Source of the DNA: an uncultured delta proteobacterium
GTDB lineage: Bacteria; Myxococcota_A; Polyangia; Polyangiales; Polyangiaceae
Assembly: GCA_963826085.1 (NCBI GenBank)
Contig: CAWGVN010000002.1
Location: 1-64,000, forward strand
Direction: 5' to 3'
Length of the DNA stretch: 64,000 bases
The translations under genes were made by a program, and so were the position numbers. Positions 16,506-27,510 of the stretch are shown here, piece by piece. Within the stretch, counting starts at the first letter, position 1; each line of letters starts with the position of its first letter. The notes under the pieces were generated by a model. It did no database searches. It worked only from the letters and a program-made list of their open reading frames with translations, and was not told the origin of the DNA.

Positions 16506-17156
16506 TCACGGACACTGATCGCTGGTCGGACAGGGCGGCGAGTTGTTCGCACCCGGACAGCACACCCAGACGCAGTCGGCGCTCGAGCCCACCGTCTCCG
16601 TCGTGCTGCTCTTGGCGGACTGTCCGCTTCCCGTGAGCGTGCCGGGATCGCCCGACCCCTGGTCGCCGTCGGTGTCGTGCCAGGGAGCGTTGCCGAGGAC
16701 GAAGCCGGATGCCGCGGTCGCCGCCAGATCGACCTGTCCCGGATCGACGCACACGGTCTGCTTCGCGGCGGTGCTTGCCGTCCCGCCGGCGACCGATACC
16801 GAGCACCAGTTGAGGTAGTTCTTCACGGTGAGCGGAACCTGGCTGCCGGTGCAGCCGCCGCCGCTGCCGCCGGTTCCAGCACTTCCGCCTGCGCCCGAGC
16901 TCCCGCCCGCGCCCGAGCTTCCGCCCGTGGAGCTGCCGGCCGTGCCGCCGCTTCCGCTGCCGCTGCTGCCGCCCGTGGAGCTGCCAGCGGTTCCGCCGGT
17001 GCCGCTGCCCGAGCTGCCGCCGCTGCCGCCGCTGGAACCCCCGGTGCCGCCGCTGCTGCTGCTCTTCTTCGAGCTGCTGCTGCAGCCGACGGTCGTTCCG
17101 AGCGCCAGCACAAAACCAAGAGAAGATACGTAGGCCAGGTTCCTCAAGTTGATCAT
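16506..17156 (-). CDS. Gly/Ser-rich lipoprotein with Cys-rich C-terminal domain
   Basis: MINLRNLAYVSSLGFVLALGTTVGC (lipobox), a GS-rich linker of about 80 aa, then a C-terminal module with 8 Cys. It is the only coding-looking part of the 1150-aa antisense ORF in the track. Confidence 0.6.
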   Translation of the reverse strand: MINLRNLAYVSSLGFVLALGTTVGCSSSSKKSSSSGGTGGSSGGSGGSSGSGTGGTAGSSTGGSSGSGSGGTAGSSTGGSSGAGGSSGAGGSAGTGGSGGGCTGSQVPLTVKNYLNWCSVSVAGGTASTAAKQTVCVDPGQVDLAATAASGFVLGNAPWHDTDGDQGSGDPGTLTGSGQSAKSSTTETVGSSADCVWVCCPGANNSPPCPTSDQCP

Positions 17157-17291
17157 GGTCAAGAGTGTCCTCTCTAGCCCGGAGGCGGTCAACTCCGCGT
17201 CGGGTCGCATCGAACGGACGCGCAAGTACCCGGCAACGCTGCGAATTGTCCGATGAGGTCGGGCCCGGCTCCAATCCTGTAGACTGGGTCC

Positions 17292-20003
17292 GTGAAGCTT
17301 GTCGGGTTCTGGTTGCTGCCGCTCGCCATTGTGCTTTCGGCCTGCTCGAACCTGGGAGAGATCCAGCCCGGCGTCTGCGGCAACGGGATCGTGGATCCGG
17401 GCGAGGACTGCGACGGGCCCGGTGCGGGCTGCGGCACGCTGGCCTCCGACCATCCCTGCCGCTTCGTGTGCGGCGCCGCGGCGGGGAGCTCCAATGCGAC
17501 CTGCCCGACCGGGTACGGTTGCGGTCACGACGGCGTGTGTCGCGCGGCCACCGGAAGTTTCGCGGAGCCGCAGGCGCTGCCCGGCGACCAGACCGTGGCC
17601 TTCTCCGTCGGCGACGTCGACGGCGACGGCAACGACGACATCGTGGGCGTCAACCAGGCCGGGTGGATCGGCGTGGACTATCTCGACGCAGGCGGGCTTG
17701 CCGCCACGGCGCGCTCGCACAGCGTGCAGTTGCCGTTTGCGCTGGGTCAGCTCACCGACGGCGACACGCGAGCCGACGTCGCCCATCTGCCGGGAGCCTC
17801 GGTCGGTGTGCTCACCGGCGGAGCCGATCGCAGCCTGACGCCGCAGGCCTACGCCGGCTTTGCAGTTCCCGCTTCCGGTTCCGGCAGGACGATCCTGTTC
17901 ACTCTCGACGCTGCCTACGTGCGGCCCGGGGAACAGGACTTCGAGAAGTTCGGCGGTCAGGAGTTCCTGGCCTGGACCGGTTCGCTGCTGTTCGTGCCGA
18001 TTGCGAACCAGAATCTGTTCTCCGTGGACGAGGCGAAGAGCACGCTCGCGCCCCGCCTCGCCGCGGGAGCCGTCCCCACCGGAAACATCGACGAGCGGGA
18101 GCAGACGTCGCCGTGCGACGAGTTCGTGCTCGCGGACCAGGGGTCGCCGGAAGTGTCGGTGTACACGCCGTGCAGTGGACCGGGCGAGCAGTGGAACACG
18201 GATCCGCACGCCTATCCGAAGGTGGAGCTGCCCGGTGGGGCGAAGGTGGGCGAAGGCGCGCTGCTCACCCGGATCAATCCGGGCGACAAGCACCTCGACC
18301 TGGTCATCGCCAGCCAGCCGTATCCCAACCCCGACCCGAGCAGCCCGATCTCGCAGGTCGCCGACATCTACGTCGCGTTCGGCGTCGGCGACGGCACGTT
18401 CAACAGCACTCCGCCGCCGGTCACGACGCCGGACCAGACGGCTGCGCTGCTGTTTCCCGGGATGTCGGGCCTGCCGCTCGCCACCGGGGATCTGAATGGC
18501 GACGGCGTCGACGACTTCGTGTTCCCGGACAGGGTGGTGGAGAGCGACCTGAAGACGTGCGCGGGGTGCTGGACCACCGTGCTGTCCGGTGAGGGATGGG
18601 CCCAGGCGCAGATCGCCGACTTCAACGGCAACGGCATCCCCGACTTCGTCACTGTCCCCATTGCAGGGCGCTACGTCGAGTTCTTCAACGGCACCGGCGG
18701 ACCGCTGTTCAACAAGTCCGAGATCCAGACCAACGGATACCCCAACGCGCTGACCCAGGGTGACTTCGACGGCAATCTGATCCCCGATATCGCAGTGGCG
18801 GAGGCCGGCGGCGTCGACGCTTGCCCTGGCACCGATCGCTCGGATTCCGTGTCGATCCTGTTCGGAAACGTGGGCGGGCCGCTGGGCTCTCCCCAGAGCA
18901 TGGGAAAGCTCGACTGCATTTCCCAGTTCGTGGCGGGCAACTTCTTCTTCGCCGCCGGAGTCGACTGGACTTCCGATCTCGCGGCGCTCGACGTGGCAGC
19001 GGACGGCAGCGAGCATGTCGCGCTGTTCGGGGGCTCGACCGCTCGCCAGCTCAGCGCGCCATTTCCACTCGATTCGACGGATTCGGTCAATTCCGATCTG
19101 GGGATCTCCATCCAGGCCGGCCAATTCGACAGCGACAAGTCGCACAGCGATCTGGCAGTGCTGGCGCTCGACGGGGCTCCGCCCCGCAAGCCGCGGCTGT
19201 GGGTGCTGCCGTCCACCGGAACCGCCAATCTGGAGAACGGATATCCCGCTCCGAACCTGGACCCGAAGACCGTACCGCTCGACGTGTGCTCGGCGCTCAC
19301 CGCGGAAGCCGACTTCGACGGCGATGGGATCGACGAGATGGTGCTGCTGGGGCGATCGTCCAAGGCGGGCGGTCTGGTCGCGATCGCCAAGGTCGATCCG
19401 AAGACCAAGGAGCTCCACATCGCCGCCACCCATCCGGTCTCCGACGTCGACTTGATCCAGCCCTCCATCTTCCGCTTCCAGTGCGCCGTCCGTCGCGATC
19501 CCCAGAATCCGGGCGTCGCGGACGCTCTGGATTCCACGCAGGTCCAGGTCACCGACATCGACGGAAAGAAGCAGATTGTCGTTCTGGGCGCGGCCGGCGG
19601 TTCGACGCCGCAGTCTGGACACGTGCTGCGCGCATTCTCCTGGCAGGGCGCCGGGCACGACATCGTCGAGTCGACCATTACGGCGCCGTCCGGTGTCGAT
19701 CCGCTGGGCTTTGCGGTCATGAACGCGGACGCCGACCCTGGGCCGGAAGTCGTGCTGGTGACTATCGACGGCGTGTTCGTCTCCAATCTGCAGGTCGCCT
19801 CCGACGGGTCGATGAAGCTCGGGCCGCTGTACTCGCCGGCGGGTGGCGAGCCGATCGCGCCGAACATGGTCATGCCGGGTATCGGCATCGAGGGCGTGAT
19901 CGGCGTCCGTCCGGGCGACTTCAACGGCGACGGCGTCCCGGATTTCGTCGTCGGGCACCAGACCGGGTTCAACGTCTACTACGGAGCTCCGGAGGTGCCA
20001 TGA
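17292..20003 (+). CDS. FG-GAP/VCBS-repeat lipoprotein with N-terminal Cys-rich repeat
   Basis: Signal peptide plus lipobox (IVLSAC), then Cys-rich GVCGNGIVDPGEDCDGPGAGCG (myxococcal Cys-rich repeat-like). Multiple FG-GAP-like Ca-binding loops follow: GDVDGDGNDDIV, GDLNGDGVDDFV, ADFNGNGIPDFV, GDFDGNLIPDIAV, ADFDGDGIDEMV, GDFNGDGVPDFVV. Confidence 0.8.
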   Translation: MKLVGFWLLPLAIVLSACSNLGEIQPGVCGNGIVDPGEDCDGPGAGCGTLASDHPCRFVCGAAAGSSNATCPTGYGCGHDGVCRAATGSFAEPQALPGDQTVAFSVGDVDGDGNDDIVGVNQAGWIGVDYLDAGGLAATARSHSVQLPFALGQLTDGDTRADVAHLPGASVGVLTGGADRSLTPQAYAGFAVPASGSGRTILFTLDAAYVRPGEQDFEKFGGQEFLAWTGSLLFVPIANQNLFSVDEAKSTLAPRLAAGAVPTGNIDEREQTSPCDEFVLADQGSPEVSVYTPCSGPGEQWNTDPHAYPKVELPGGAKVGEGALLTRINPGDKHLDLVIASQPYPNPDPSSPISQVADIYVAFGVGDGTFNSTPPPVTTPDQTAALLFPGMSGLPLATGDLNGDGVDDFVFPDRVVESDLKTCAGCWTTVLSGEGWAQAQIADFNGNGIPDFVTVPIAGRYVEFFNGTGGPLFNKSEIQTNGYPNALTQGDFDGNLIPDIAVAEAGGVDACPGTDRSDSVSILFGNVGGPLGSPQSMGKLDCISQFVAGNFFFAAGVDWTSDLAALDVAADGSEHVALFGGSTARQLSAPFPLDSTDSVNSDLGISIQAGQFDSDKSHSDLAVLALDGAPPRKPRLWVLPSTGTANLENGYPAPNLDPKTVPLDVCSALTAEADFDGDGIDEMVLLGRSSKAGGLVAIAKVDPKTKELHIAATHPVSDVDLIQPSIFRFQCAVRRDPQNPGVADALDSTQVQVTDIDGKKQIVVLGAAGGSTPQSGHVLRAFSWQGAGHDIVESTITAPSGVDPLGFAVMNADADPGPEVVLVTIDGVFVSNLQVASDGSMKLGPLYSPAGGEPIAPNMVMPGIGIEGVIGVRPGDFNGDGVPDFVVGHQTGFNVYYGAPEVP

Positions 20004-21220
20004 AGCGGCGCGCGGCTATCCTCGGGACTCTTCTGCTGGCGCTGGCCTCGCCGGCGCGCGCCGACACGGCGCGGGCGTACTTCGACATCGGCGCCAAGGC
20101 GTACGAAGCTGGCCGCTACCTGGACGCCGCGCACGCGTTCGAGGAGGCCTACCGCCTGTCGAAACGGCCGGGCCTGCTGTTCTCGCTCGGACAGGCGAAC
20201 CGCATGGAGTTCTTCGCCAGGAGCGATCCCGCGCGGCTGAGGGACGCGGTCCATTACTACAAGCTCTACGTCCAGCAGGCTCCGTCCGGGGACCGCGTCA
20301 AGGATGCAACGGCCGCGCTGACCACGCTCGCGCCCCTGCTGGAGAAGCTGGGCGACGCAGCGTCCTCGCCGTACGCCCCGGCCGCGTCCGGCAAGCCGCG
20401 CGTGATGATCTCGTCGCCGACCGAGGGCGCGCAGATCACGTTCGACGGCAAGCGCGTGAGCGACCCGTACATGGCCGAGGTCGCCGCCGGCAAGCACCAG
20501 GTCGTGCTTTCTGCGCCGGGATACAAGGACTACCGGCGGGAGATCGTCGTGGACGAGAAGAACGGCGTGCCCCCGCTCGATATCGCGCTTGAAGAGAAGC
20601 CCGCTCGGCTCGTCATCAACGCGCCGGAGGGCGCCGACGTGACCATCGACGGTCGGCTCCAGGGTACGACGCCGCTTCCGCCGCTCGGCGTGGCTTCTGG
20701 AACGCACTTCATCGCGGTGACTCTCAACGGTCACGGGGCGTTCAGCCGGACTGTCGCCCTCCAGCGCGGCGAGCAGAAGACCCTCGACGCCGAGCTGCAT
20801 GTTACCGGGCAGCGCACGGCGAGCTGGGTGCTGATGGGCGTTGGCGCGGGCGGCATCGTCGCCGGCGGCGTGCTCGGCTACGTCGCGCTGAAGAAGGATT
20901 CGGATGCCAAGGCGATCCAGAACGCCGACTCGTCGCAAGGCAATCTGCCGCCCGGCGAGCTGGGCCGCTACAACTCGCTGCGCCAGAGCCGCGACAACTT
21001 CCGGCTCGCTTCCGTCATCGCTTTCGGCGCCGGCGCCGGCGTGGCCGCAGTCGGCCTGGTCCTGCACGCATTCGACCAGCCGAAACCGCCGCTGCCTCCT
21101 CTCGAGCAGACGACGCCCGGTGCGCCCAGACGCACCACTCCCGAGCCCGGCTTCGAGATCAGCGCCGCGCCGCTCTGGCAGCCGGGGTTTGTCGGCGCGT
21201 CGGCGGGCGGGCGGTTCTGA
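20000..21220 (+). CDS. PEGA-domain protein with signal peptide and C-terminal TM helix
   Basis: The start overlaps the upstream stop (ATGA). Signal peptide MKRRAAILGTLLLALASPARA. Two PEGA-like modules (VMISSPTEGAQITFDGKRVSDPYMAEV...LSAPGYKDYRREIVV; LVINAPEGADVTIDGRLQGTTPLP...GTHFIAVTLNGHGAFSRTV), then a hydrophobic helix (WVLMGVGAGGIVAGGVLGYVAL). Confidence 0.75.
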   Translation: MKRRAAILGTLLLALASPARADTARAYFDIGAKAYEAGRYLDAAHAFEEAYRLSKRPGLLFSLGQANRMEFFARSDPARLRDAVHYYKLYVQQAPSGDRVKDATAALTTLAPLLEKLGDAASSPYAPAASGKPRVMISSPTEGAQITFDGKRVSDPYMAEVAAGKHQVVLSAPGYKDYRREIVVDEKNGVPPLDIALEEKPARLVINAPEGADVTIDGRLQGTTPLPPLGVASGTHFIAVTLNGHGAFSRTVALQRGEQKTLDAELHVTGQRTASWVLMGVGAGGIVAGGVLGYVALKKDSDAKAIQNADSSQGNLPPGELGRYNSLRQSRDNFRLASVIAFGAGAGVAAVGLVLHAFDQPKPPLPPLEQTTPGAPRRTTPEPGFEISAAPLWQPGFVGASAGGRF

Positions 21221-21223
21221 ACG

Positions 21224-22138
21224 TCAGGCGATCACGTCCGAGAACAATCCGCTGGAGACCCCGTTCGAAAACCAGGTCATGACGCGCGCGGCCGCCTCCG
21301 TCTCGCTGGCCTCTCCGAGCAGCGGAGCGACGCGCTCGAGCGCATCGCCGAGCGATTCGCCCGCGGCGAGCGCTTCGAACAGCGCCGCCATCGCCGGCTC
21401 GAGCTCCATGCGCCATATCGTCGCGCCCGTGCGGTAGACCGCAACGCTGGTAGCCCCAGCGGCGGGAACCGCGGGCGACCCGCCGCTGCGGAACGCCTGC
21501 AGATAGGCGTTCGCCGGATAGTCCAGCTTCAGGATCCGGAGCGAGGGATTGGCGACCAGGCGCGCCTCTCCCCAGGCGTCCGCGGGCACGCGCGCCAGAT
21601 CTTCCGGCGTGATCACGCTCGAGGTCGGCGCGTGGATGACGAGCACGATCGCCCACTCCAGGCTCGCGAGGTCCGCGGCGAAGCCGAGTTGCTCGTCGCG
21701 ACACAGCCCGGACATGTGCTGCCCGAACACGTTCAGGTTCGGCCCGGTCGACGGGAAGCGCGCGATGTACCTCCTGCACAGCGCGTTGAAGCGCTCCTCG
21801 CCGAGGTGGTGCTGGAGCACCGGGTAGTCGTCGGCGAGGCAGTCGACAAGCCGCGCGTGATAGCCGCGGCGGTAGATCTCCAGGCGCTCGAGCGAGCTGA
21901 GCGCTCTGCTGGGCGTCACGAGCGCGGCGGCAGAGCGGTCGTCGACGGGCGCCGGCTCCGACTCCGCCGTGGTGATGATCGCCTCGAACCACTGCTGCTG
22001 CGCGCGCAGGTCGAGCTTTGCCGGGAGCCATGCCGGAGCCGAGCCGTGGCGGGCGTGTGCGGGAACCTCGAGGTGCGCGGGCGTGGCGCTCGCGCGCTCG
22101 TGCGTGCCGATCGAATCCGCGGTGGCCTGCCGCTTCAC
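21224..22138 (-). CDS. DUF2063-family protein (MbnC/HvfC-like partner of DUF692)
   Basis: GTG start overlaps the DUF692 stop (GTGA). The N-terminus has ...LDLRAQQQWFEAIITTAESEPA...ERLEIYRRGYHARLVDCLADDYPVLQHHLGEERFNALCRRYIARFPS, the pattern I recall for DUF2063 N-terminal domains that always follow DUF692 genes. Confidence 0.7.
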   Translation of the reverse strand: MKRQATADSIGTHERASATPAHLEVPAHARHGSAPAWLPAKLDLRAQQQWFEAIITTAESEPAPVDDRSAAALVTPSRALSSLERLEIYRRGYHARLVDCLADDYPVLQHHLGEERFNALCRRYIARFPSTGPNLNVFGQHMSGLCRDEQLGFAADLASLEWAIVLVIHAPTSSVITPEDLARVPADAWGEARLVANPSLRILKLDYPANAYLQAFRSGGSPAVPAAGATSVAVYRTGATIWRMELEPAMAALFEALAAGESLGDALERVAPLLGEASETEAAARVMTWFSNGVSSGLFSDVIA

Positions 22139-22965
22139 GCGCTCGCTCCGACGAACTCGTGCGCCCGGAGCGCCTCCGCGTGGGTCTCCTCGAGGGACGG
22201 GATATCCACGTCCCACTCCAGCAGCACGCTGGCTCCGCCGGCCCGCTTGTGGGCGACGGCGAGCAGCTCCCACACCGGATCGATGACGGGGCCGATGTGC
22301 GAATCGATGATGTGCGTGCCGAAGTCCGTGTGGCCCGCGACGTGGAACTGGATCACCCGCTCGTAGGGTACGGCGTTCAAGTACTCCATCGGATCGAAGC
22401 CGTGGTTCTTCGAGGAGACGTAGACGTTGTTCACGTCGAGCAGGATCGCGCAGTCGGCGTCTTCCGCCAGGCGTCCGAGGAATTCCCACTCGCTCATGCT
22501 GGCGCCGGTAAGCTCGGCGTACGTGGACGGGTTCTCGAGCGCCAGCGGCGCGCCGAGGAAATCCTGGACCTCCCGCACGCGCGCTGCGACGTGCGCGAGC
22601 GCTTCCTCCGTGTAGGGCAGGGGAAGCAGATCGTGCGTGTTCCTGCCGGCGACGCCCGTCCAGCACAGATGGTCGGAGACCCAGAGGGCGCCGACGCGGT
22701 CGCGCAGAGCACGGAGCTCGGCGAGATAGTCGCGATCGAGCGGATCCGTCGAGCCGATGGACAGCGACACGCCGTGCATCACGACGGGATACGCGCCGGC
22801 GATCGCGTCGAGGTAGTCCAGCGGGCGGCCGGACGTGTGCATGTAGTTTTCGCTGATGATCTCGAAGAAGGCGACGGGCGGCCGATCCTCGACGATGCGC
22901 TGGTAGTGCTTCGTCCTCAGGCCGAGCCCGGCTCCGAGATCGGGCAGATCGAATCGCTTCTTCAT
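22135..22965 (-). CDS. DUF692-family protein (MbnB/HvfB-like multinuclear non-heme iron enzyme, TIM-barrel)
   Basis: MKKRFDLPDLGAGLGLRTKHYQRIVEDRPPVAFFEIISENYMHTSGRPLDYLDAIAGAYPVVMHGVSLSIGSTDPLDRDYL...WVSDHLCWTG...LALENPSTY...ILLDVNNVYVSSKNHGFDP...IQFHVAGH are hallmark DUF692 blocks. Confidence 0.85.
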   Translation of the reverse strand: MKKRFDLPDLGAGLGLRTKHYQRIVEDRPPVAFFEIISENYMHTSGRPLDYLDAIAGAYPVVMHGVSLSIGSTDPLDRDYLAELRALRDRVGALWVSDHLCWTGVAGRNTHDLLPLPYTEEALAHVAARVREVQDFLGAPLALENPSTYAELTGASMSEWEFLGRLAEDADCAILLDVNNVYVSSKNHGFDPMEYLNAVPYERVIQFHVAGHTDFGTHIIDSHIGPVIDPVWELLAVAHKRAGGASVLLEWDVDIPSLEETHAEALRAHEFVGASA

Positions 22966-23033
22966 GGGGCTCGAGCCGGACCGCACCGGCGTCTCCGGTG
23001 CGGTCCGTCCCGGATGCGATCAGCCGATGCCGA

Positions 23034-23309
23034 TCAGTTGCCGCCCGAGTCGCCGCCGCCCGTGTCGCTGCCGCCGCTCGAATCGTCGCCGCCGCTCTTC
23101 ATGCCCGTGCAGGAGTGCTTCTCCGGTGCCGGGGCCGGCGCTGCTCCCATTCCGCTGCCCGTGCAGGAGTGCTTGGCCGGCGCGGCCGCGGGTGTCGCGT
23201 CGCTGCCCGAGGGCGTGTTCGGTTGCGGGGTGGCGCCGCCGCCACAACCCGTGGCTCCCGCCAGGATCCCGCCGACTGCCGCCGTCAAAAGAGCATTCTT
23301 GATGTTCAT
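23034..23309 (-). CDS. small Cys-motif lipoprotein, candidate DUF692 substrate/precursor peptide (paralog 2)
   Basis: A 91-aa protein. Signal and lipobox MNIKNALLTAAVGGILAGATGC are nearly identical to paralog 1. The core carries two KHSCTG motifs (AKHSCTGSGMG...EKHSCTGMKSGG) and a Gly/Asp/Ser tail. It lies immediately upstream (same strand) of DUF692. Confidence 0.6.
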   Translation of the reverse strand: MNIKNALLTAAVGGILAGATGCGGGATPQPNTPSGSDATPAAAPAKHSCTGSGMGAAPAPAPEKHSCTGMKSGGDDSSGGSDTGGGDSGGN

Positions 23310-23558
23310 GTTCCCTCTTGTCAGGTTGCGTGAGTGCGCGCTCCGGCTTGGAGCTTGCCCCGGTATGTACGGGCCAGGCGGCAAGCCGTTACATCTGATC
23401 TCGCACTTCTCGTTCGATTCGAGGCTTGTCCAACGATTGACGCCCGTCAATCTGTATCTGATCTGGCGCCGCCTGCGCGCGGGGCGCCGGAGCCTGGGTG
23501 GTGGCGCCTGGAGCGCCGAGCACGGAGCGCGGCGCCCAGGCGCTGGAGTCGGAGGCGA

Positions 23559-23819
23559 TCAACCGTGGCAGCCGCCCTGGCCCTTGCAGTCGTTCATGCC
23601 CTTGCAGGCATGCGAGTCGGTCTTGCAGCCGCCCTGGCCCTTGCAGTCGTTCAGGCCCTTGCAGGCGTGCTTGGCGGGTGCTGCGGCCGGTGCCCCGGCG
23701 GGAGCGGCGGTGCCCGCGGACGGCGCGTTCGGCGCTGGGGTGGCGCCGCCACCGCAACCCGTAGCTCCGGCGAGGATTCCGCCCACAGCCGCTGTCAACA
23801 GAGTGCTCTTGATGTTCAT
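23559..23819 (-). CDS. small Cys-motif lipoprotein, candidate DUF692 substrate/precursor peptide (paralog 1, DUF2282/HvfA-like core)
   Basis: An 86-aa protein MNIKSTLLTAAVGGILAGATGC..., with core AKHACKGLNDCKGQGGCKTDSHACKGMNDCKGQGGCHG. That core is two tandem HACKG-x-NDCKGQGGC units and resembles the conserved Cys block (..CyG.akaGkNDCa...sCaGq..) of DUF2282 peptides that pair with DUF692/DUF2063. Confidence 0.7.
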   Translation of the reverse strand: MNIKSTLLTAAVGGILAGATGCGGGATPAPNAPSAGTAAPAGAPAAAPAKHACKGLNDCKGQGGCKTDSHACKGMNDCKGQGGCHG

Positions 23820-23963
23820 GGAGTTTCCTCTTCAGTTGATGAGGCAAGAATCCGCCTCGTGTCCACTTGTCTACGCAGAAGATGCTTATGCGGATCGCCC
23901 GGAGCCGTTACAGGGGACGCTCTGCATTCCGGCTGGCGAGGCTCGCCGCGGCCGCGGGAGCCG

Positions 23964-25400
23964 TCAATCCGAACGCGGTGAGACGATGGCTTTGCGGATC
24001 TTCGCGTCGGGCGCGGAATCGTCGAAGACAACCGCCTTGCCCGCCGCGCGCACGCCCAGCTTCTGGAACAGGGCACCCAGATCCGCGCTGCCCGGCGAAA
24101 GCGCGAGCCGGGCGTACAGATCGCGCAGCACATGGGTGCCCGTGGCCCGGTCGCCGACCTCCAGCACCTTCGAAATATCCCAGTAGTTCTGGTTGGTAGC
24201 GCCGGTCGCCCCGATGGCTCTGAGCACCGTGTCGAGCGAACGGGTGTTGCGCGTGCGCTCGCGGATTTCCACGTCCGCGAGCAGACAGAACAGCGCGCCT
24301 CCCCAGTAGGTGCGGCCCCAGGTCCGGGTCTTTTCCAGGCCCTGATCCCCCGGTCCCGGCAGGCCCTGGGGCAGCCCCTCGACCAGATCTCCCCACACCT
24401 TCTGCGGCGTCACGAGCCCGACACGTACGCGTGCGATGGGCTCCACGTACGTCGCCAGACCCTCCATGAGCCAGGCGTGCCGCCAGCCGAGGTCCGGGAA
24501 ATTCACGTGCAGGAGCTCGTGCGTCACGACCCAGTCGTCGCGCGTGTTGTCCGCCGTGACGCCGTCGCCGACGCGGATCAAGGTTGCGGGTCCTCCGCCG
24601 CCGAGCGTCAGGCCGCGCGTCGGCCCCTTCGAGCCCTTCATCACGAGGATGAGGGCGCGGTGCGCCGGCGGATGTCCGAGGTAGTACTTCGCGACCGCGC
24701 CCGTCGAGGCGTGGACCCACGAGAACACGTCGCGGTCGCTGAGCGGGAGGCGCGCCGGCGCGATGCCGACCTGGATCGTCGCGTCGCCGGCCGCGACGCT
24801 GCCCACGTGCACGGGACCGAACGCCGCAAAGCTCGAATCCTCCATGTCATCGACGTCCATCTCGAAGCCGTCCCCGCCGCGATGCACGCCCGTGATGAAA
24901 TGCGAGCCGGCGCCGGGGCTCACGTAGAACTCGAATTCCGAACCGCTCGGCGCCCGTGACGGATGGAGCAGCCACGACGACGGGGGCGCGAACACCACGT
25001 TGCCCGAAGCTATCGCGGTGTCGGGCGCGTCGATCGTGTCCGCTGCCCGCATGAGATCGAATCGATAGCGGACGCGGCAACCCTGCACGCACGGCACGGG
25101 CCACGCGGCGCCGCGACGCGCCACGGGGATCCAGCGCGATCCGCTTGCCACCGCGACGTCGTGCACGAAGGGTTGCGAGTCGGCGTCGATGGCGAGGCCG
25201 GGCGCCGGAGCGGAGCCGAAGCTCGCTTCCACGGCCAGCTCCTGGGCTTGCCGGGCGCTGACGGCATAGCGCCATGCCACGTGCGGCCCGGCAGGACGTG
25301 GTGGGTCGCGTGGCGCCCTGCTCGTGCAACCCAGCGTCACGACGACCAGCCCGGAAACCAGGAGGCCCCGGGCCGTGCGCTGTAACGCTCTCTTGCCGGC
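23964..25400 (-). CDS. putative zinc metallopeptidase lipoprotein (HExxH...E)
   Basis: The motif THELLHVNFPDLGWRHAWLMEGLATYVE (HExxH + Glu) sits in a roughly 480-aa ORF. An N-terminal signal-like KRALQRTARGLLVSGLVVVTLGC carries a lipobox. No canonical start codon was found just upstream of the signal peptide, so the 5' end is uncertain. Confidence 0.5.
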   Translation of the reverse strand, partial: AGKRALQRTARGLLVSGLVVVTLGCTSRAPRDPPRPAGPHVAWRYAVSARQAQELAVEASFGSAPAPGLAIDADSQPFVHDVAVASGSRWIPVARRGAAWPVPCVQGCRVRYRFDLMRAADTIDAPDTAIASGNVVFAPPSSWLLHPSRAPSGSEFEFYVSPGAGSHFITGVHRGGDGFEMDVDDMEDSSFAAFGPVHVGSVAAGDATIQVGIAPARLPLSDRDVFSWVHASTGAVAKYYLGHPPAHRALILVMKGSKGPTRGLTLGGGGPATLIRVGDGVTADNTRDDWVVTHELLHVNFPDLGWRHAWLMEGLATYVEPIARVRVGLVTPQKVWGDLVEGLPQGLPGPGDQGLEKTRTWGRTYWGGALFCLLADVEIRERTRNTRSLDTVLRAIGATGATNQNYWDISKVLEVGDRATGTHVLRDLYARLALSPGSADLGALFQKLGVRAAGKAVVFDDSAPDAKIRKAIVSPRSD

Positions 25401-25442
25401 GGCGTATGGACAGGAGACGCTCCTCCAGAAGAGGGAACCACC

Positions 25443-25934
25443 ATGGGACTCAAGAAGATCGCAGACACGCTGGTAGAAAAGCTCGAGAGCATCGGCTGGG
25501 TGGCGCCGTTGTTGGGCCGCCTCTCGGTGGGGCTTCTCTTCCTTTCCACCGGATGGGGGAAAGTGCATCACGTCGACAAGATCACGCACTTCTTCCAGAC
25601 CCTTGGTATTCCCGCTCCGGGGTTCAACGCGGTGTTGGTAGGCTATAGCGAGCTCATCTGCGGTTCGCTCCTGGTTATCGGGCTCCTCACGCGACTCGCT
25701 ACGATTCCGCTCATCGTGAGTATGATCGTCGCGATCCTCACTGCCAAGCTCAAGAGCATCCACGGTCTATTCGATCTGGTGGGGGCCGATGAATTCACGT
25801 ATCTGTGCGTGCTCATCATGGTCGGCGTGATCGGCCCCGGGCTCTTGTCGCTCGATCATCTGGTCGCCAGGCGCCTCTGGCCGAAGTCCGGGGCTGCACC
25901 GGAGCGGGAGCCGGAGCGGCAGCAGGCGGAGTAG
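25443..25934 (+). CDS. DoxX-family membrane protein
   Basis: MGLKKIADTLVEKLESIGWVAPLLGRLSVGLLFLSTGWGKV... has four predicted TM helices typical of DoxX. Confidence 0.8.
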   Translation: MGLKKIADTLVEKLESIGWVAPLLGRLSVGLLFLSTGWGKVHHVDKITHFFQTLGIPAPGFNAVLVGYSELICGSLLVIGLLTRLATIPLIVSMIVAILTAKLKSIHGLFDLVGADEFTYLCVLIMVGVIGPGLLSLDHLVARRLWPKSGAAPEREPERQQAE

Positions 25935-25935
25935 C

Positions 25936-27510
25936 TCACGGCATCGGCCTCGAGTGTGCGGACGGCGCTTCCGGCACCGACGGCCAGCCGCCGCTCCACT
26001 CCACGGTATCGACGAGCATCAGACGCTGGTCGCCGGGGCCGTTCACGTGGCCGCTCTGCCAGGCGTGGTAGACGATGTAGGTGTCGGTCGGTGTGTCGAG
26101 CACCGAGCAGTGTCCGGGCCCAATCCACCGGCTGCTGCTCGAGAGGATCGGTCCGCCCTTCTTCTGGTACGGACCGAGCGGCGAGCTCGAGCGCGCGACG
26201 CCGACCGCGTACGTCGCGTTGTAGTACGCGTTGCCGCTGTAGAAGAGGTAGTAGTAGCCGCCGCGCGCGACGACCCACGGCCCTTCCACCACGCTGCCTT
26301 CCCAGCCCTGGTTGTTCACGATGAGCTGGACGCGCGAGCCGGTGAGCGCCGTGCCGTTCGCCGAGAGCTTCTGGCCGTAGATGGGCGTCGGCTTTCCGAG
26401 CGCGTTGCCATCCGCCTTCCACACCAGGTACGGCGTTCCGCTCGAGTCGGTGAACTCGCTTGGATCGATCATGCCCATCGACGCGTCGTGCACCAGCGGC
26501 TGTCCGATGTCGGTGAACGGGCCGAGCGCGCTCGACGCGGTGGCGGCGCCGACCGAGAGCTGCCCGTCCTGGGCGCGCGCGGTGAAGTAGGCGACGTAGT
26601 GGCTGCCTACCTTGTGGATCTCCGGGGCCCAGAAGTCGCTCTTCGCCCACGACGGCTTGTTTGCCGACGGGAAGATCGAGCCGGCGGAGGTCCAGTGCAC
26701 CAGATCGGGCGACGTCCTGATCGGGAACGCGTTGGTCGCGTTGCCGCTCGTGCAGACGACGACGTACTGGTTGCCGTCGTGAAGCACGCCCGGATCCGCG
26801 CAGCCGGTGGGGATGACGGGGTTCTCGTACAGGCCGCCGCATCCCTCGTAGCGGAACGACATTGCGCAGCTGCCGTTGAAGTGCGGCGCCCAGCCGTTGG
26901 AGAGTGTGGCGTACGACGTGGCGCCCTGGTTCGTGCAGGAGCGGTTCCAGAACACGCGCCGGCCAACGTCGTCGTACTGGGCGGGATGGTTCTGCGGCGG
27001 GAGCCAGTCGCTGCCGTATGTGATGCGCGTCGTGCATTGGGTTGGACCGCCGCAGGTGGTGTCGAGCGCGATCACGCAGGCGCTGTGCCCGGAGAAGACC
27101 GGCTGCCAGCCATTGGAGAGCGTGGCCGTCGAGTTCTGTCCGCTGTCCTGGCATGAGCCGTCCCAGGTGACGCTGCCTTTCACCTCGTCGAATTGATCGG
27201 GGTGATTCGACGCATGGATCCAGGCATCGCCGTAGGTGATGCGCGTGGTGCAAGGCGTCGCGCCGCCGCTGCCGCCCGATCCGGCGTTGCCGCCCGATCC
27301 GGCGGCGCCGCTCGTGCCGCCGGCGCCGCTGTCGGCGCCCGCCTCGGCGCCGCTTCCTCCGCCGCCCGAGTCCGTCGCTGCAAAGCCGGCCGTGGAGACG
27401 TCCCTGTCCGTGGATGCGTCACTCGCGGAGCGCGAGCTGGTCCCGCTTCCGCAGCCGTACGCGAAGGCGACTGCGAGGGCAGAACAAGCGGCGATTCGAG
27501 TCGTGCGCAC
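25936..27510 (-). CDS. glycoside hydrolase family 43 lipoprotein with two N-terminal Cys-containing repeat modules
   Basis: The C-terminal half has the GH43 five-bladed propeller pattern (...GCADPGVLHDGNQYVVVCTS...DFWAPEIHKVGSHYVAYFTA...MIDPSEFTDSSGTPYLVWK...EGPWVVARGGYYYLFYSG). Lipobox AFAYGC. Two repeats of about 70 aa begin CTTRITYG. Confidence 0.75.
   Translation of the reverse strand: MRTTRIAACSALAVAFAYGCGSGTSSRSASDASTDRDVSTAGFAATDSGGGGSGAEAGADSGAGGTSGAAGSGGNAGSGGSGGATPCTTRITYGDAWIHASNHPDQFDEVKGSVTWDGSCQDSGQNSTATLSNGWQPVFSGHSACVIALDTTCGGPTQCTTRITYGSDWLPPQNHPAQYDDVGRRVFWNRSCTNQGATSYATLSNGWAPHFNGSCAMSFRYEGCGGLYENPVIPTGCADPGVLHDGNQYVVVCTSGNATNAFPIRTSPDLVHWTSAGSIFPSANKPSWAKSDFWAPEIHKVGSHYVAYFTARAQDGQLSVGAATASSALGPFTDIGQPLVHDASMGMIDPSEFTDSSGTPYLVWKADGNALGKPTPIYGQKLSANGTALTGSRVQLIVNNQGWEGSVVEGPWVVARGGYYYLFYSGNAYYNATYAVGVARSSSPLGPYQKKGGPILSSSSRWIGPGHCSVLDTPTDTYIVYHAWQSGHVNGPGDQRLMLVDTVEWSGGWPSVPEAPSAHSRPMP

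What the first reader, a model, noticed from the sequence alone, without database searches (positions are those of the whole stretch)
21224..23819. DUF692/DUF2063 (MbnBC/HvfBC-like) peptide-modification cluster with two lipoprotein precursors carrying repeated KH(A/S)C(K/T)G cysteine motifs
On the minus strand lie two small paralogous lipoproteins (23559..23819 and 23034..23309), then a DUF692 TIM-barrel gene (22135..22965) whose stop overlaps (GTGA) the start of a DUF2063-like gene (21224..22138). DUF692+DUF2063 pairs are the MbnB/MbnC-type enzymes that convert Cys in a co-encoded peptide into oxazolone/thioamide metal-binding groups (methanobactin, HvfA, TglA-type chemistry). The first peptide core is AKHACKGLNDCKGQGGCKTDSHACKGMNDCKGQGGCHG, a tandem duplication of an HACKG-x-NDCKGQGGC unit reminiscent of the DUF2282 Cys block. 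The second core keeps KHSCTG twice but replaces the rest with Gly/Asp/Ser-rich sequence. Both are predicted lipoproteins (Cys of LAGATGC), so the modified product would be membrane-tethered. This combination may be an undescribed variant of the MbnBC-type maturation systems.
Basis: partly seen in the sequence, partly recalled or inferred. Interest (0 to 1): 0.8.

Follow-up and report, generated by a model that had tools for sequence, protein, structure and literature searches.

The report
Lipid-anchored bufferin copper-peptide gene cluster
The four genes are real, but they form a bufferin-2 ("captophorin") cluster, an already described system that turns cysteines of an exported peptide into copper-binding rings; the only unusual parts are a rare two-cysteine second precursor and a conserved neighbouring peptidase gene.

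Summary
On the minus strand lie two paralogous lipobox peptides, PepA (23559-23819) and PepB (23034-23309). They are followed by a DUF692/MNIO gene (22135-22965) whose stop overlaps (GTGA) the start of a DUF2063 gene (21224-22138).

The interpretation needs correcting. The enzyme is a BufB equivalog (NCBIfam 346 bits, cutoff 310). PepA is a BufA2-type (BUF_6/12Cys, "Cys-Lys") bufferin, not DUF2282-like. For this subfamily the published chemistry is 5-thiooxazole, not oxazolone/thioamide. Lipoprotein Buf2 precursors (about 16%), tandem precursor genes and lipidated "DAG-RiPPs" are already published.

What is less ordinary:
- PepB is a tandem-duplicated, diverged copy that keeps two of the six Cys (KHSCTGM twice). 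It was found in only three related Polyangiaceae-type assemblies, is under purifying selection, and is the sole precursor beside bufBC in two of them.
- An M61-like zinc-peptidase lipoprotein and a divergent DoxX gene form a conserved module with bufA-B-C in 7-9 of the 12 closest further relatives.
- Sigma-F-like ECF promoter motifs precede pepB and doxX, with a degenerate one before pepA.
- A strong hairpin follows each precursor gene.

Verdict: a new member of a known kind with a minor variant precursor. Interest is modest.

The parts
25443..25934 (+). DoxX-family membrane protein (bufD-like), transcribed divergently from the cluster
   Evidence: Pfam DoxX E 1.3e-19 (71 bits, cutoff 23.6). 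NCBIfam HvfX family 65 bits, below its cutoff of 80. Found in the same divergent position in 8 of the 12 closest further relatives, L004-L015.
25381..25406 (+). ECF-type promoter-like motif TGTAAC-N16-CGTA, 37 nt upstream of the doxX ATG
   Evidence: One of only 2 matches in the 64 kb window, against 0.03 expected. Resembles the Caulobacter sigma-F site GTAACC-N16-CGAA (PMC3511200).
23964..25418 (-). M61/M1-like gluzincin lipoprotein (HELLH...WLMEGLATY; lipobox VTLGC); start codon unresolved
   Evidence: AF2 model pLDDT 88.8. Best PDB fold matches are M61 aminopeptidases: 7xyo E 1.7e-15, 4fgm, 8j9c. H, E, H and E of the zinc motif are invariant in 34 homologues. Sits directly upstream of the precursor gene in 9 of the 12 closest further relatives. 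There is no ATG/GTG/TTG between 25568 and 25340. The public gene call is 422 aa, which by my arithmetic is 23964-25232 (P0142).
23887..23912 (-). Degenerate copy of the ECF-type motif upstream of pepA (TGTAACGGCT...CATA in place of CGTA)
   Evidence: It is homologous by position to the pepB and L004 promoter motifs in alignment A1.
23559..23819 (-). pepA: BufA2-type (BUF_6/12Cys, Cys-Lys group) bufferin precursor with a lipoprotein signal peptide and 6 core Cys
   Evidence: NCBIfam BufA2 E 1.2e-12 (47.9 bits, cutoff 60). 732 relatives. Six Cys invariant in the 40-sequence alignment A4. All 40 sequences match BufA2. The exact sequence is absent from the protein collection, so it was probably not called as a gene in the source assembly.
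23504..23543 (-). GC-rich stem-loop just downstream of the pepA stop codon
   Evidence: The MFE structure contains a stem of about 14 bp. The z-score of the whole 126-nt stretch is only -1.5.
23368..23393 (-). ECF-type promoter-like motif TGTAAC-N16-CGTA, about 60 nt upstream of the pepB ATG
   Evidence: 2 matches in the window, 0.03 expected. The same motif lies upstream of the PepB orthologues in L001 and L002 and of the PepA orthologue in L004. A T/GAAAC...CGTA variant precedes the precursor in 6 further Polyangiaceae loci.
23034..23309 (-). pepB: diverged tandem duplicate of pepA; a lipobox peptide keeping 2 Cys (KHSCTG(M) twice), with a genome-specific Gly/Asp/Ser repeat tail
   Evidence: The DNA is homologous to the pepA unit from about 170 nt upstream of the ATG. 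Only 3 database members, including itself. dN/dS 0.19-0.33. Sole precursor beside bufBC in L001 and beside the cut MNIO gene in L002.
22969..23017 (-). Strong stem-loop between the pepB stop and the bufB start (13-bp perfect GC-rich core, no U tract)
   Evidence: dG -46.1 kcal/mol and z -4.63, with 0 of 200 shuffles folding as well. By my reading of the dot-brackets, 13 of 15 related loci have a comparable hairpin at this position with different sequences.
22135..22965 (-). bufB: multinuclear non-haem iron oxidase (MNIO, formerly DUF692)
   Evidence: Pfam PF05114 E 1.7e-105. NCBIfam MNIO_BufB 346.1 bits against a cutoff of 310. Closest solved relative 3bww, E 3.3e-46. The Asp of the EWD motif, aligned with the ERD motif of 3bww, is conserved.
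21224..22138 (-). bufC: DUF2063 partner protein; its GTG start overlaps the bufB stop (GTGA)
   Evidence: Pfam DUF2063 69.9 bits (cutoff 27.2). NGO1945_C 25.2 bits (cutoff 27). NCBIfam HvfC 55.7 bits, below its cutoff of 142. The overlap is in the sequence. The same 304-aa product is in the public collection.

Best explanation
This is a bufferin-2 ('captophorin', Cys-Lys group) biosynthetic cluster of a Polyangiaceae-type myxobacterium.

**Shown by sequence.**
- Gene order is bufA (two copies), bufB, bufC.
- A divergent doxX and an M61-like lipoprotein gene lie upstream.
- Each precursor copy is a complete expression unit: an ECF-type promoter motif, a ribosome-binding site, the ORF and a terminal hairpin.

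**Inferred from the characterised Caulobacter, Fontimonas and Neisseria systems.**
1. A sigma-F-like ECF sigma factor switches the genes on under copper or other metal stress.
2. The hairpins keep precursor mRNA in excess over read-through bufBC mRNA.
3. In the cytoplasm BufC presents the precursor to the iron enzyme BufB. BufB uses O2 to convert selected Cys into 5-thiooxazoles (-4 Da each).
4. The peptide is exported by Sec. The lipobox Cys22 is diacylglycerylated, the signal peptide is removed by signal peptidase II, and the N-terminus is acylated.
5. The result is a Pro/Ala-linked, membrane-tethered periplasmic copper chelator.

**PepA and PepB.** PepA is the canonical six-Cys substrate. 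PepB arose by tandem duplication of the pepA unit and lost four Cys. I consider it a second, minimal two-site substrate with probability about 0.6. The reason is that it alone is kept in front of an intact bufBC in L001, and in front of the cut MNIO gene in L002.

The confidence of 0.85 refers to the family assignment and overall mechanism, not to the PepB part.
For: **Family assignment.**
- BufB equivalog above its cutoff, and DUF2063 partner.
- PepA and 39 relatives all match BufA2, with six invariant Cys.
- A single BufA2-like precursor lies directly upstream of the MNIO gene in most of the 80 related loci.

**Module.** DoxX | M61-like | bufA | bufB | bufC is complete in 7 of the 12 closest further relatives (L004-L015), and the M61-like gene is present in 9 of them.

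**Duplication.** The pepB unit aligns with the pepA unit from the 3' end of the M61-like gene through the promoter motif.

**PepB is a real gene.**
- dN/dS 0.19-0.33.
- Its promoter motif and hairpin are conserved in L001 and L002.
- It is the only small Cys peptide beside bufBC there.
- bufB in L001 is still under purifying selection (dN/dS 0.17).

**Regulation.** TGTAAC-N16-CGTA occurs twice in the window against 0.03 expected, in front of pepB and doxX. The Caulobacter buf operons are sigma-F dependent with the site GTAACC-N16-CGAA (PMC3511200).

**Chemistry and function.** 5-thiooxazole formation and copper protection are shown for Buf1, Buf2 and fontiphorin (PMC11626156, PMC13097082). Lipidation of MNIO products through the lipoprotein pathway is shown for DybA, tested for NedA, and predicted for bufferins (PMC13056109).
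Against: - Nothing here is experimental. No modification, lipidation or copper binding has been shown for these peptides.
- PepA scores below the NCBIfam BufA2 cutoff (47.9 against 60). It lacks the C-terminal part of that model, matching only positions 15-62 of 79.
- The AF2 model of PepA is unstructured (pLDDT 52), so the predicted bufferin fold could not be confirmed.
- PepB has Cys-Thr, not the Cys-Lys dyad of its family. The retained Cys correspond to CysI and CysIV. In Caulobacter Buf2, CysI is unmodified and forms a disulfide.
- No sigma factor or anti-sigma gene was seen among the neighbours scanned.
- The two other two-Cys lipoproteins of this kind (P0140, P0124) are not next to an MNIO gene.
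- MAGs L001 and L002 could carry a canonical bufA2 elsewhere in the genome.
Confidence: 0.85

Rival explanations
1. PepB is not a BufBC substrate. It is an unmodified periplasmic Cu(I)-binding lipoprotein that uses the His, Cys and Met side chains of its two KHSCTGM motifs. It is merely co-regulated with the bufferin genes, and PepA (or an orphan bufA2 elsewhere in the genome) is the only substrate.
For: - The two other two-Cys lipoproteins recovered by the PepB profile lie in metal-resistance neighbourhoods without an MNIO gene.
  - P0140 is next to a multicopper oxidase, an outer-membrane factor, a CusB/CzcB-type protein and a P-type ATPase.
  - P0124 is near a CDF transporter and a CsoR-type repressor.
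- PepB lacks the Cys-Lys dyad, and FonBC assays show that residues flanking Cys govern turnover.
- Many bufferin precursors are encoded away from MNIO genes (PMC12452194).
Against: - PepB sits between pepA and bufB and keeps the family's promoter motif, precursor-terminal hairpin and gene order.
- In L001, and in L002 as far as that contig reaches, it is the only candidate substrate next to bufBC; bufB of L001 remains under purifying selection.
- It is a direct duplicate of a BufA2 gene.
Confidence: 0.25
2. One reading: an MbnBC/HvfBC-like system that installs oxazolone/thioamide pairs, representing an undescribed class.
For: - MNIO plus partner-protein architecture.
- HvfB and MbnB are detectable relatives of the enzyme.
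- HvfBC was originally reported to make oxazolone/thioamide (PMC11252979).
Against: - BufB passes its equivalog cutoff, whereas HvfB (258 against 360) and MbnB (58 against 325) fail theirs.
- There is no EGKCG repeat and no MbnA-like leader/core.
- Bufferins carry 5-thiooxazoles, and oxazolin has been revised to 5-thiooxazole.
- The class, including its lipoprotein forms, is published.
Confidence: 0.05
3. PepB is a decaying, non-functional remnant of a duplicated bufA2 gene.
For: - It has lost four of six Cys.
- It carries a slippage-type low-complexity tail.
- The family is tiny, with 3 members.
Against: - dN/dS 0.19-0.33 at dS 0.43-0.73, comparable to bufB.
- The signal peptide, lipobox, both KHSC(T/S)G sites, the ribosome-binding site, the promoter motif and the hairpin are all conserved in three genomes.
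- In two genomes pepB is kept while pepA is absent from the locus.
Confidence: 0.05

Closest known systems
Bufferin 2 (BufA2B2C2, BUF_6/12Cys) of Caulobacter vibrioides; 'Cys-Lys' group of captophorins
   Same: - Gene order bufA-bufB-bufC.
- MNIO of the BufB equivalog family, with a DUF2063 partner.
- Exported precursor with six Cys in Cys-Lys-Gly contexts.
- An ECF sigma-F-like promoter motif.
- Expected 5-thiooxazole chemistry and copper buffering.
   Different: - PepA has a lipoprotein rather than a signal-peptidase-I signal. About 16% of Buf2 precursors share this.
- PepA has a long Pro/Ala linker.
- PepA has a compact 2 x (H-x-C-K-G-x-N-D-C-K-G-Q-G-G-C) core and lacks the C-terminal part of the BufA2 model.
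- A doxX gene is present, whereas Caulobacter buf2 lacks one.
- There is an extra M61-like gene and a second, two-Cys precursor.
DAG-RiPPs (lipidated MNIO products: DybA, NedA; PMC13056109)
   Same: The precursor carries a lipobox. It would be modified in the cytoplasm by an MNIO and then handed to the general lipoprotein pathway. That paper lists bufferins among the families with signal-peptidase-II signals.
   Different: - The characterised examples are ChrH-type macrocycles (CPxCGxG) and an EGKCG oxazolin.
- In the papers I read, no lipidated BufA2-type bufferin and no two-Cys KHSCTGM peptide has been characterised.
Oxazolin/fontiphorin (HvfABC, FonABC; Lys-Cys EGKCG repeats)
   Same: MNIO plus DUF2063 partner plus DoxX; repeated short Cys motifs; copper detoxification. 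PepB resembles them in having isolated single-Cys sites separated by flexible spacers.
   Different: - The motif is K-H-S-C-T-G, not E-G-K-C-G.
- The enzyme fails the HvfB cutoff.
- There are only two sites.
Methanobactin MbnABC
   Same: MNIO chemistry acting on Cys; a copper-binding product.
   Different: - Distant enzyme (58 bits against a cutoff of 325).
- From general knowledge of the family, methanobactin also differs in having a different partner protein (MbnC), a secreted chalkophore product, a leader peptide without a Sec signal, and an oxazolone/thioamide product.

Membership tests
Bufferin 2 / BufA2 (BUF_6/12Cys, captophorin Cys-Lys group) | MNIO enzyme of the BufB equivalog family | tested here: met
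   NCBIfam NF050167 MNIO_BufB 346.1 bits against a cutoff of 310. Pfam PF05114 E 1.7e-105.
Bufferin 2 / BufA2 (BUF_6/12Cys, captophorin Cys-Lys group) | DUF2063 partner protein encoded immediately after the MNIO gene | tested here: met
   PF09836 69.9 bits (cutoff 27.2). GTGA overlap with bufB. The C-terminal NGO1945_C/RRE-like domain is only borderline at 25.2 against 27.
Bufferin 2 / BufA2 (BUF_6/12Cys, captophorin Cys-Lys group) | Strict gene order precursor-MNIO-partner | tested here: met
   pepA, pepB, bufB and bufC are co-directional. The same order holds in the related loci.
Bufferin 2 / BufA2 (BUF_6/12Cys, captophorin Cys-Lys group) | Precursor with an N-terminal Sec-type signal peptide | tested here: met
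   Both peptides have K4, a hydrophobic stretch and the lipobox A-T-G-C22. This was assessed by a sequence rule only; no SignalP tool was available.
Bufferin 2 / BufA2 (BUF_6/12Cys, captophorin Cys-Lys group) | Six (or twelve) conserved Cys, mostly in Cys-Lys contexts - PepA | tested here: met
   C-x5-C-x5-C-x6-C-x5-C-x5-C; all six Cys invariant in alignment A4.
Bufferin 2 / BufA2 (BUF_6/12Cys, captophorin Cys-Lys group) | Six (or twelve) conserved Cys, mostly in Cys-Lys contexts - PepB | tested here: not met
   Two core Cys, each followed by Thr (Ser at the first site in L001). No BufA2 hit.
Bufferin 2 / BufA2 (BUF_6/12Cys, captophorin Cys-Lys group) | Precursor reaches the curated score of the NCBIfam BufA2 model | tested here: not met
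   PepA scores 47.9 bits against a cutoff of 60 (E 1.2e-12) and matches model positions 15-62 of 79. All 40 family members match at E <= 1e-3.
Bufferin 2 / BufA2 (BUF_6/12Cys, captophorin Cys-Lys group) | Catalytic base Asp of 5-thiooxazole-forming MNIOs (FonB-Asp249 equivalent) | tested here: met
   Asp of LLEWDVDIP aligns with the ERD motif of 3bww and is conserved in every locus that covers the site. The equation with FonB-Asp249 is my inference. The iron ligands were not checked one by one.
Bufferin 2 / BufA2 (BUF_6/12Cys, captophorin Cys-Lys group) | Small folded bufferin domain predicted by AlphaFold | tested here: inconclusive
   The PepA model has pLDDT 51.8 and no secondary structure.
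Bufferin 2 / BufA2 (BUF_6/12Cys, captophorin Cys-Lys group) | Cys converted to 5-thiooxazole; copper binding; protection from copper stress | not testable with these tools
   Needs co-expression, mass spectrometry, NMR and phenotypes.
Bufferin 1 (DUF2282) | Pfam DUF2282 match with four conserved Cys | tested here: not met
   No DUF2282 hit for PepA or PepB at E <= 0.1.
Oxazolin / HvfABC (Lys-Cys group) | HvfB equivalog and EGKCG repeats in the precursor | tested here: not met
   HvfB 257.6 bits against a cutoff of 360; HvfC 55.7 against 142. No EGKCG in either peptide.
Methanobactin MbnBC | MbnB equivalog | tested here: not met
   TIGR04159 58.4 bits against a cutoff of 325. PDB MbnB chains match at only 2.8e-10 to 2.1e-08.
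Chryseobasin-related DAG-RiPPs (ChrA/DybA with ChrH-type MNIO) | CPxCGxG motif, ChrA_rel model and ChrH-type MNIO with a C-terminal helical bundle | tested here: not met
   PepB against ChrA_rel scores 26.1 bits against a cutoff of 40. ChrH scores 38.7 against 600. No CPxCGxG motif is present.
DAG-RiPP concept (any MNIO-modified lipoprotein) | Lipobox Cys in a precursor encoded next to an MNIO gene | tested here: met
   Sequence rule. Actual lipidation is not testable here.

The most novel reading that the evidence does not exclude
PepB defines a minimal, lipid-anchored, two-site captophorin. Its single-Cys K-H-S-C-T-G-M sites (Cys-Thr rather than Cys-Lys) are still made into 5-thiooxazoles by a BufB-type enzyme. 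In some Polyangiaceae it has replaced the canonical six-Cys bufferin. The conserved M61-like lipoprotein would be a dedicated processing enzyme of these tethered bufferins, for example trimming or releasing the Cys domain from its Pro/Ala linker.
Probability: 0.25. Interest if true: 0.45.

Novelty: new member of a known kind. Interest (0 to 1): 0.3.

Why it matters
The main result is a reclassification. The cluster belongs to the bufferin/captophorin copper-buffering RiPPs, now one of the largest MNIO families, so it does not open a new class.

It is still useful in three ways.
- It is a natural pair of substrates for one BufBC: a six-Cys Cys-Lys peptide and a two-Cys Cys-Thr peptide. That makes it a compact test case for what BufB needs around a target Cys.
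- It is a candidate for the first characterised lipidated bufferin.
- The conserved M61-like lipoprotein is a possible accessory gene. None of the bufferin papers I read mentions it.

Tried and rejected
- **More PepB-type genes.**
  - A word-indexed search of 5.8 billion proteins found only 3, including PepB itself.
  - A back-translated scan of JGI metagenomes found none.
  - A degenerate DNA pattern for KH[ST]CTGMK gave 36 matches, none in a plausible reading frame or context.
  - A full HMMER profile search of 1.84 billion representatives returned only BufA2 lipoproteins plus two other two-Cys variants.
- **PepA structure.** The prediction was too poor to use (pLDDT 52), so no fold search was run on it.
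- **Specificity residue.** I looked for a change in BufB that tracks the Cys-Thr substrate, at the position after the catalytic Asp. The window has a unique Val (EWDVD). L001, which has PepB only, and L004, which has PepA only, both have EWDAE, so there is no correlation.
- **ChrA-related hit of PepB.** It is below cutoff (26 bits against 40), there is no CPxCGxG motif and no ChrH-type enzyme; I attribute the hit mostly to the lipoprotein signal region.
- **BufC in the PDB.** No hit by sequence.
- **Known RNA families.** None in 20500-26500 at E <= 1.
- **Anti-phage defence models.** No hits.
- **Intrinsic terminators.** No canonical terminator with a U tract is associated with the hairpins.
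- **Sigma or anti-sigma gene.** None among the ten neighbouring genes scanned.
- **Start codon of the M61-like gene.** It could not be fixed.

Full report

Yes. The window is about 68-70% G+C. On the minus strand, in order of transcription, it carries four ORFs:
- PepA, 23559-23819, 86 aa
- PepB, 23034-23309, 91 aa
- a 276-aa ORF, 22135-22965
- a 304-aa ORF, 21224-22138

Both peptide ORFs have a Shine-Dalgarno-like sequence. Both start MNIK..LLTAAVGGILAGATGC, that is, a basic residue, a hydrophobic stretch and a lipobox with Cys22. I assessed this by rule only, because no signal-peptide predictor was available.

The PepA core is AKHACKGLNDCKGQGGCKTDSHACKGMNDCKGQGGCHG. PepB has KHSCTG twice. 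H-x-C-[KT]-G occurs four times in all six frames of the 64 kb window, all within these two ORFs.

The 276-aa ORF matches Pfam MbnB_TglH_ChrH (the former DUF692) at E 1.7e-105, and the 304-aa ORF matches DUF2063 at E 2.2e-19. The stop of the first overlaps the GTG start of the second (GTGA).

**2. What family is it?**

NCBIfam places the enzyme in the bufferin maturase equivalog: MNIO_BufB at 346.1 bits against a cutoff of 310. It fails HvfB (257.6 against 360), MbnB (58.4 against 325), ApyH and ChrH. The closest solved structure by sequence is 3bww, a DUF692 protein (E 3.3e-46). MbnB chains match at only 2.8e-10 to 2.1e-08.

PepA matches the BufA2 model ('periplasmic bufferin-type metallophore') at E 1.2e-12. 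At 47.9 bits it is below the cutoff of 60, and it covers only model positions 15-62 of 79. It has 732 relatives. In a 40-sequence alignment the six Cys are invariant, and the consensus is AKHACKGQNDCKGQGGCKTDKHACKGQNDCKGQGGCKG. All 40 sequences hit BufA2, the best at 2.1e-21.

Neither peptide hits DUF2282. So this is a bufferin-2 system, not a DUF2282, methanobactin or oxazolin system.

**3. What the literature already covers**

- Leprevost et al. 2024 (PMC11626156) showed that BufB and BufC convert Cys of exported precursors to 5-thiooxazoles. In Buf2 the four central Cys each lose 4 Da and CysI and CysVI form a disulfide. [quoted passage not shown]
- Antoine et al. 2025 (PMC12452194) describe Buf2 (BUF_6/12Cys) as a large family. 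About 16% of its precursors have lipoprotein signal peptides, some BGCs have tandem precursor genes, and the core is bufA, MNIO, DUF2063 and DoxX. They also mention hundreds of unclassified small signal-peptide ORFs with 1-18 Cys in front of MNIOs of the same cluster.
- Gadgil et al. [quoted passage not shown] They revise oxazolin to 5-thiooxazole.
- The 2026 'DAG-RiPP' paper (PMC13056109) shows that lipobox-bearing MNIO substrates are lipidated by the general lipoprotein pathway. It lists bufferins among the families with such signals.

**4. Anatomy beyond the four genes**

I fetched 80 loci encoding relatives of BufB from species-representative genomes. The best was 80% identical and came from a Myxococcales lichen MAG, followed by loci labelled mostly Polyangiaceae. 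I added four loci found through PepA and PepB relatives.

Most carry one BufA2-type precursor of 6 or 12 Cys immediately upstream of the MNIO gene. The Polyangiaceae ones are lipobox peptides with Pro/Ala-rich linkers, like PepA.

Among the 12 closest further relatives (L004-L015):
- the divergent doxX gene is present in 8;
- a roughly 450-aa gene directly upstream of the precursor is present in 9;
- the complete module, doxX (divergent) | that gene | bufA | bufB | bufC, is present in 7.

The window has exactly this module (doxX 25443-25934; the upstream gene 23964 to about 25418), plus PepB inserted between PepA and bufB.

The upstream gene has:
- the gluzincin motif HELLH...WLMEGLATY, whose zinc-motif residues are invariant in 34 homologues;
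- a lipobox;
- weak Pfam hits to Peptidase_M1 and M61;
- more than 7,000 relatives, some labelled 'predicted metalloprotease with PDZ domain'.

Its AlphaFold model (pLDDT 88.8) best matches M61 aminopeptidase structures (7xyo E 1.7e-15, 4fgm, 8j9c), then M1 aminopeptidases. Its start codon is unresolved in the window.

None of the bufferin papers I read mentions such a gene, and a search for the terms together found none. Whether it acts on the bufferin is unknown.

**5. Origin and status of PepB**

A DNA alignment shows that the pepB unit is homologous to the pepA unit from about 170 nt upstream of the ATG. The shared stretch includes GATTGACGG, which in the pepA unit contains the stop codon of the M61-like gene. 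It also includes AGCCTC and the motif TGTAACGGCT. PepB is therefore a tandem duplicate of the whole pepA expression unit.

In the coding part, PepB keeps the first Cys of each half-repeat and has lost the other four. For example, MNDCKG became MKSGGD.

Only three PepB-type proteins exist among 5.8 billion clusters: PepB itself, P0122 (83% identical) and P0123 (70% identical). Two metagenome scans and a full profile search added none.

All three keep the signal peptide, the lipobox, AAAPAK(H/G)SC(T/S)G and KHSCTGMKSGG. The spacer and tail vary. The Gly/Asp/Ser tail is a 15-18 nt tandem repeat found only in this genome.

Pairwise dN/dS is 0.19-0.33 at dS 0.43-0.73. For comparison, bufB gives 0.16-0.17.

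In L001 (BufB 85.5% identical) the PepB-type gene is the only small Cys peptide in front of bufB-bufC. In L002 (92.9% identical over the 71 residues the contig covers) it precedes the cut MNIO gene. In both it lies next to the same GH43 gene that flanks the window's doxX, with no doxX, M61-like gene or pepA in between. L004 (BufB 87% identical) has doxX, the M61-like gene, PepA-type, bufB and bufC but no PepB.

The simplest history is that pepA duplicated in the ancestor of the window, L001 and L002 lineages, and the doxX-M61-pepA segment was later lost in the L001 and L002 lineages. Retention of PepB alone beside bufBC that are under selection is the main argument that it is a genuine substrate. 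That is an inference.

**6. Regulation signals**

TGTAAC-N16-CGTA occurs twice in the window against 0.03 expected. One copy is 23368-23393 (minus strand), upstream of pepB. The other is 25381-25406 (plus strand), 37 nt upstream of doxX. The pepA unit has the same -35-like element but CATA in place of CGTA (23887-23912).

The motif, or a T/GAAAC...CGTA variant, precedes the precursor gene in L001, L002, L004, L005, L007, L009, L010, L012, L013 and L021. It resembles the experimentally supported Caulobacter sigma-F site GTAACC-N16-CGAA, which drives both buf operons (PMC3511200). No sigma or anti-sigma gene was found among ten neighbouring genes.

Between the pepB stop and the bufB start lies a 13-bp perfect GC-rich stem-loop with dG -46.1 kcal/mol and z -4.63. 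By my reading of the dot-brackets, 13 of 15 related loci have a comparably strong hairpin of different sequence at the same place. A second hairpin follows pepA.

None of these has a U tract. I read them as partial terminators or mRNA stabilisers that set the precursor-to-enzyme ratio, as is common in RiPP operons. That reading is inference.

**7. Mechanism proposed**

In brief: metal stress switches on a sigma-F-like ECF sigma factor, which drives transcription of pepA, pepB (with read-through into bufBC) and doxX. BufC and BufB then oxidise selected Cys to 5-thiooxazole in the cytoplasm. After Sec export, Lgt, LspA and Lnt process Cys22. The product is a tethered periplasmic copper chelator.

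The gene content and motifs are shown. Every biochemical step is transferred from characterised homologues.

**8. Weak points and rivals**

- PepB has Cys-Thr rather than Cys-Lys, and FonBC assays show that flanking residues govern turnover.
- The retained Cys correspond to CysI and CysIV, and in Caulobacter Buf2 CysI is not modified.
- The two other two-Cys lipoproteins found (P0140, P0124) lie in copper or metal-resistance neighbourhoods without an MNIO gene. An unmodified His/Cys/Met copper-binding role for PepB is therefore a serious rival, at about 0.25.
- I found no BufB residue change that tracks the substrate type.

**9. Verdict**

This is a new member of the known bufferin-2/captophorin kind. 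It has a rare two-Cys paralogous precursor and a clade-specific M61-like neighbour as its only unusual features. Interest: 0.3.

Noticed in passing
window 23964-25418 (-): An M61/M1-like zinc-peptidase lipoprotein (HELLH...WLMEGLATY) lies directly upstream of the bufferin precursor here and in 9 of the 12 closest further relatives. None of the bufferin papers I read mentions it. No canonical start codon precedes its lipobox in the window.
   Followed up: partly
window 23559-23819 (-): The exact PepA sequence is absent from the 15-billion-protein collection, whereas PepB, the M61-like protein and BufC from the same 331,564-bp public contig are present. The canonical precursor was evidently not called as a gene in the source assembly.
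   Followed up: yes
L122 4001-4282; L124 511-753: Two other two-Cys lipobox peptides related to this family are not next to an MNIO gene. P0140 (KHACAAHGSCGGMMK) sits beside a multicopper oxidase, an outer-membrane factor, a CusB/CzcB-type protein and a P-type ATPase. P0124 sits near a CDF transporter and a CsoR-type repressor.
   Followed up: partly
window 23040-23097 (-): The Gly/Asp/Ser tail of PepB is encoded by a 15-18 nt tandem repeat (2.4-2.7 copies). It is absent from both orthologues, so it looks like a recent slippage expansion rather than a conserved feature.
   Followed up: yes
window 22210-22222 (-), BufB residues 250-254: BufB has EWDVD after the catalytic Asp, where 51 of the 84 sequences covering the site have Ala (EWDAE/EWDAD). 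The Val is unique in this set. It lies at or next to the site reported to contact the substrate residue that follows Cys.
   Followed up: partly
L034 5558-5956; L083 829-1059; L074 4843-5412: Some relatives of this BufB have quite different lipobox or signal-peptide precursors upstream. Examples are EGANKCSGANGCG repeats, KNACSGKDGCSGKDGC repeats and KKGCKGEGHSCAPGKC. Precursor turnover around this enzyme clade therefore appears high.
   Followed up: no
window 17292-21220 (+) compared with L001 8119-9072: Compared with L001, the window has an FG-GAP repeat lipoprotein (17292-20003) and a TPR/PEGA-domain protein (about 20000-21220) inserted between bufC and the HTH_3 gene. The flanks (TPR, HTH_25, HTH_3, GH43, GreA-like) are otherwise syntenic.
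   Followed up: partly
window 16506-19958 (-), 22018-24186 (+): Very long open frames (1150 aa and 722 aa) run antisense to real genes. This is typical of 68-70% G+C DNA. They have no family support and overlap the FG-GAP gene and the bufferin genes, so they should be ignored.
   Followed up: partly
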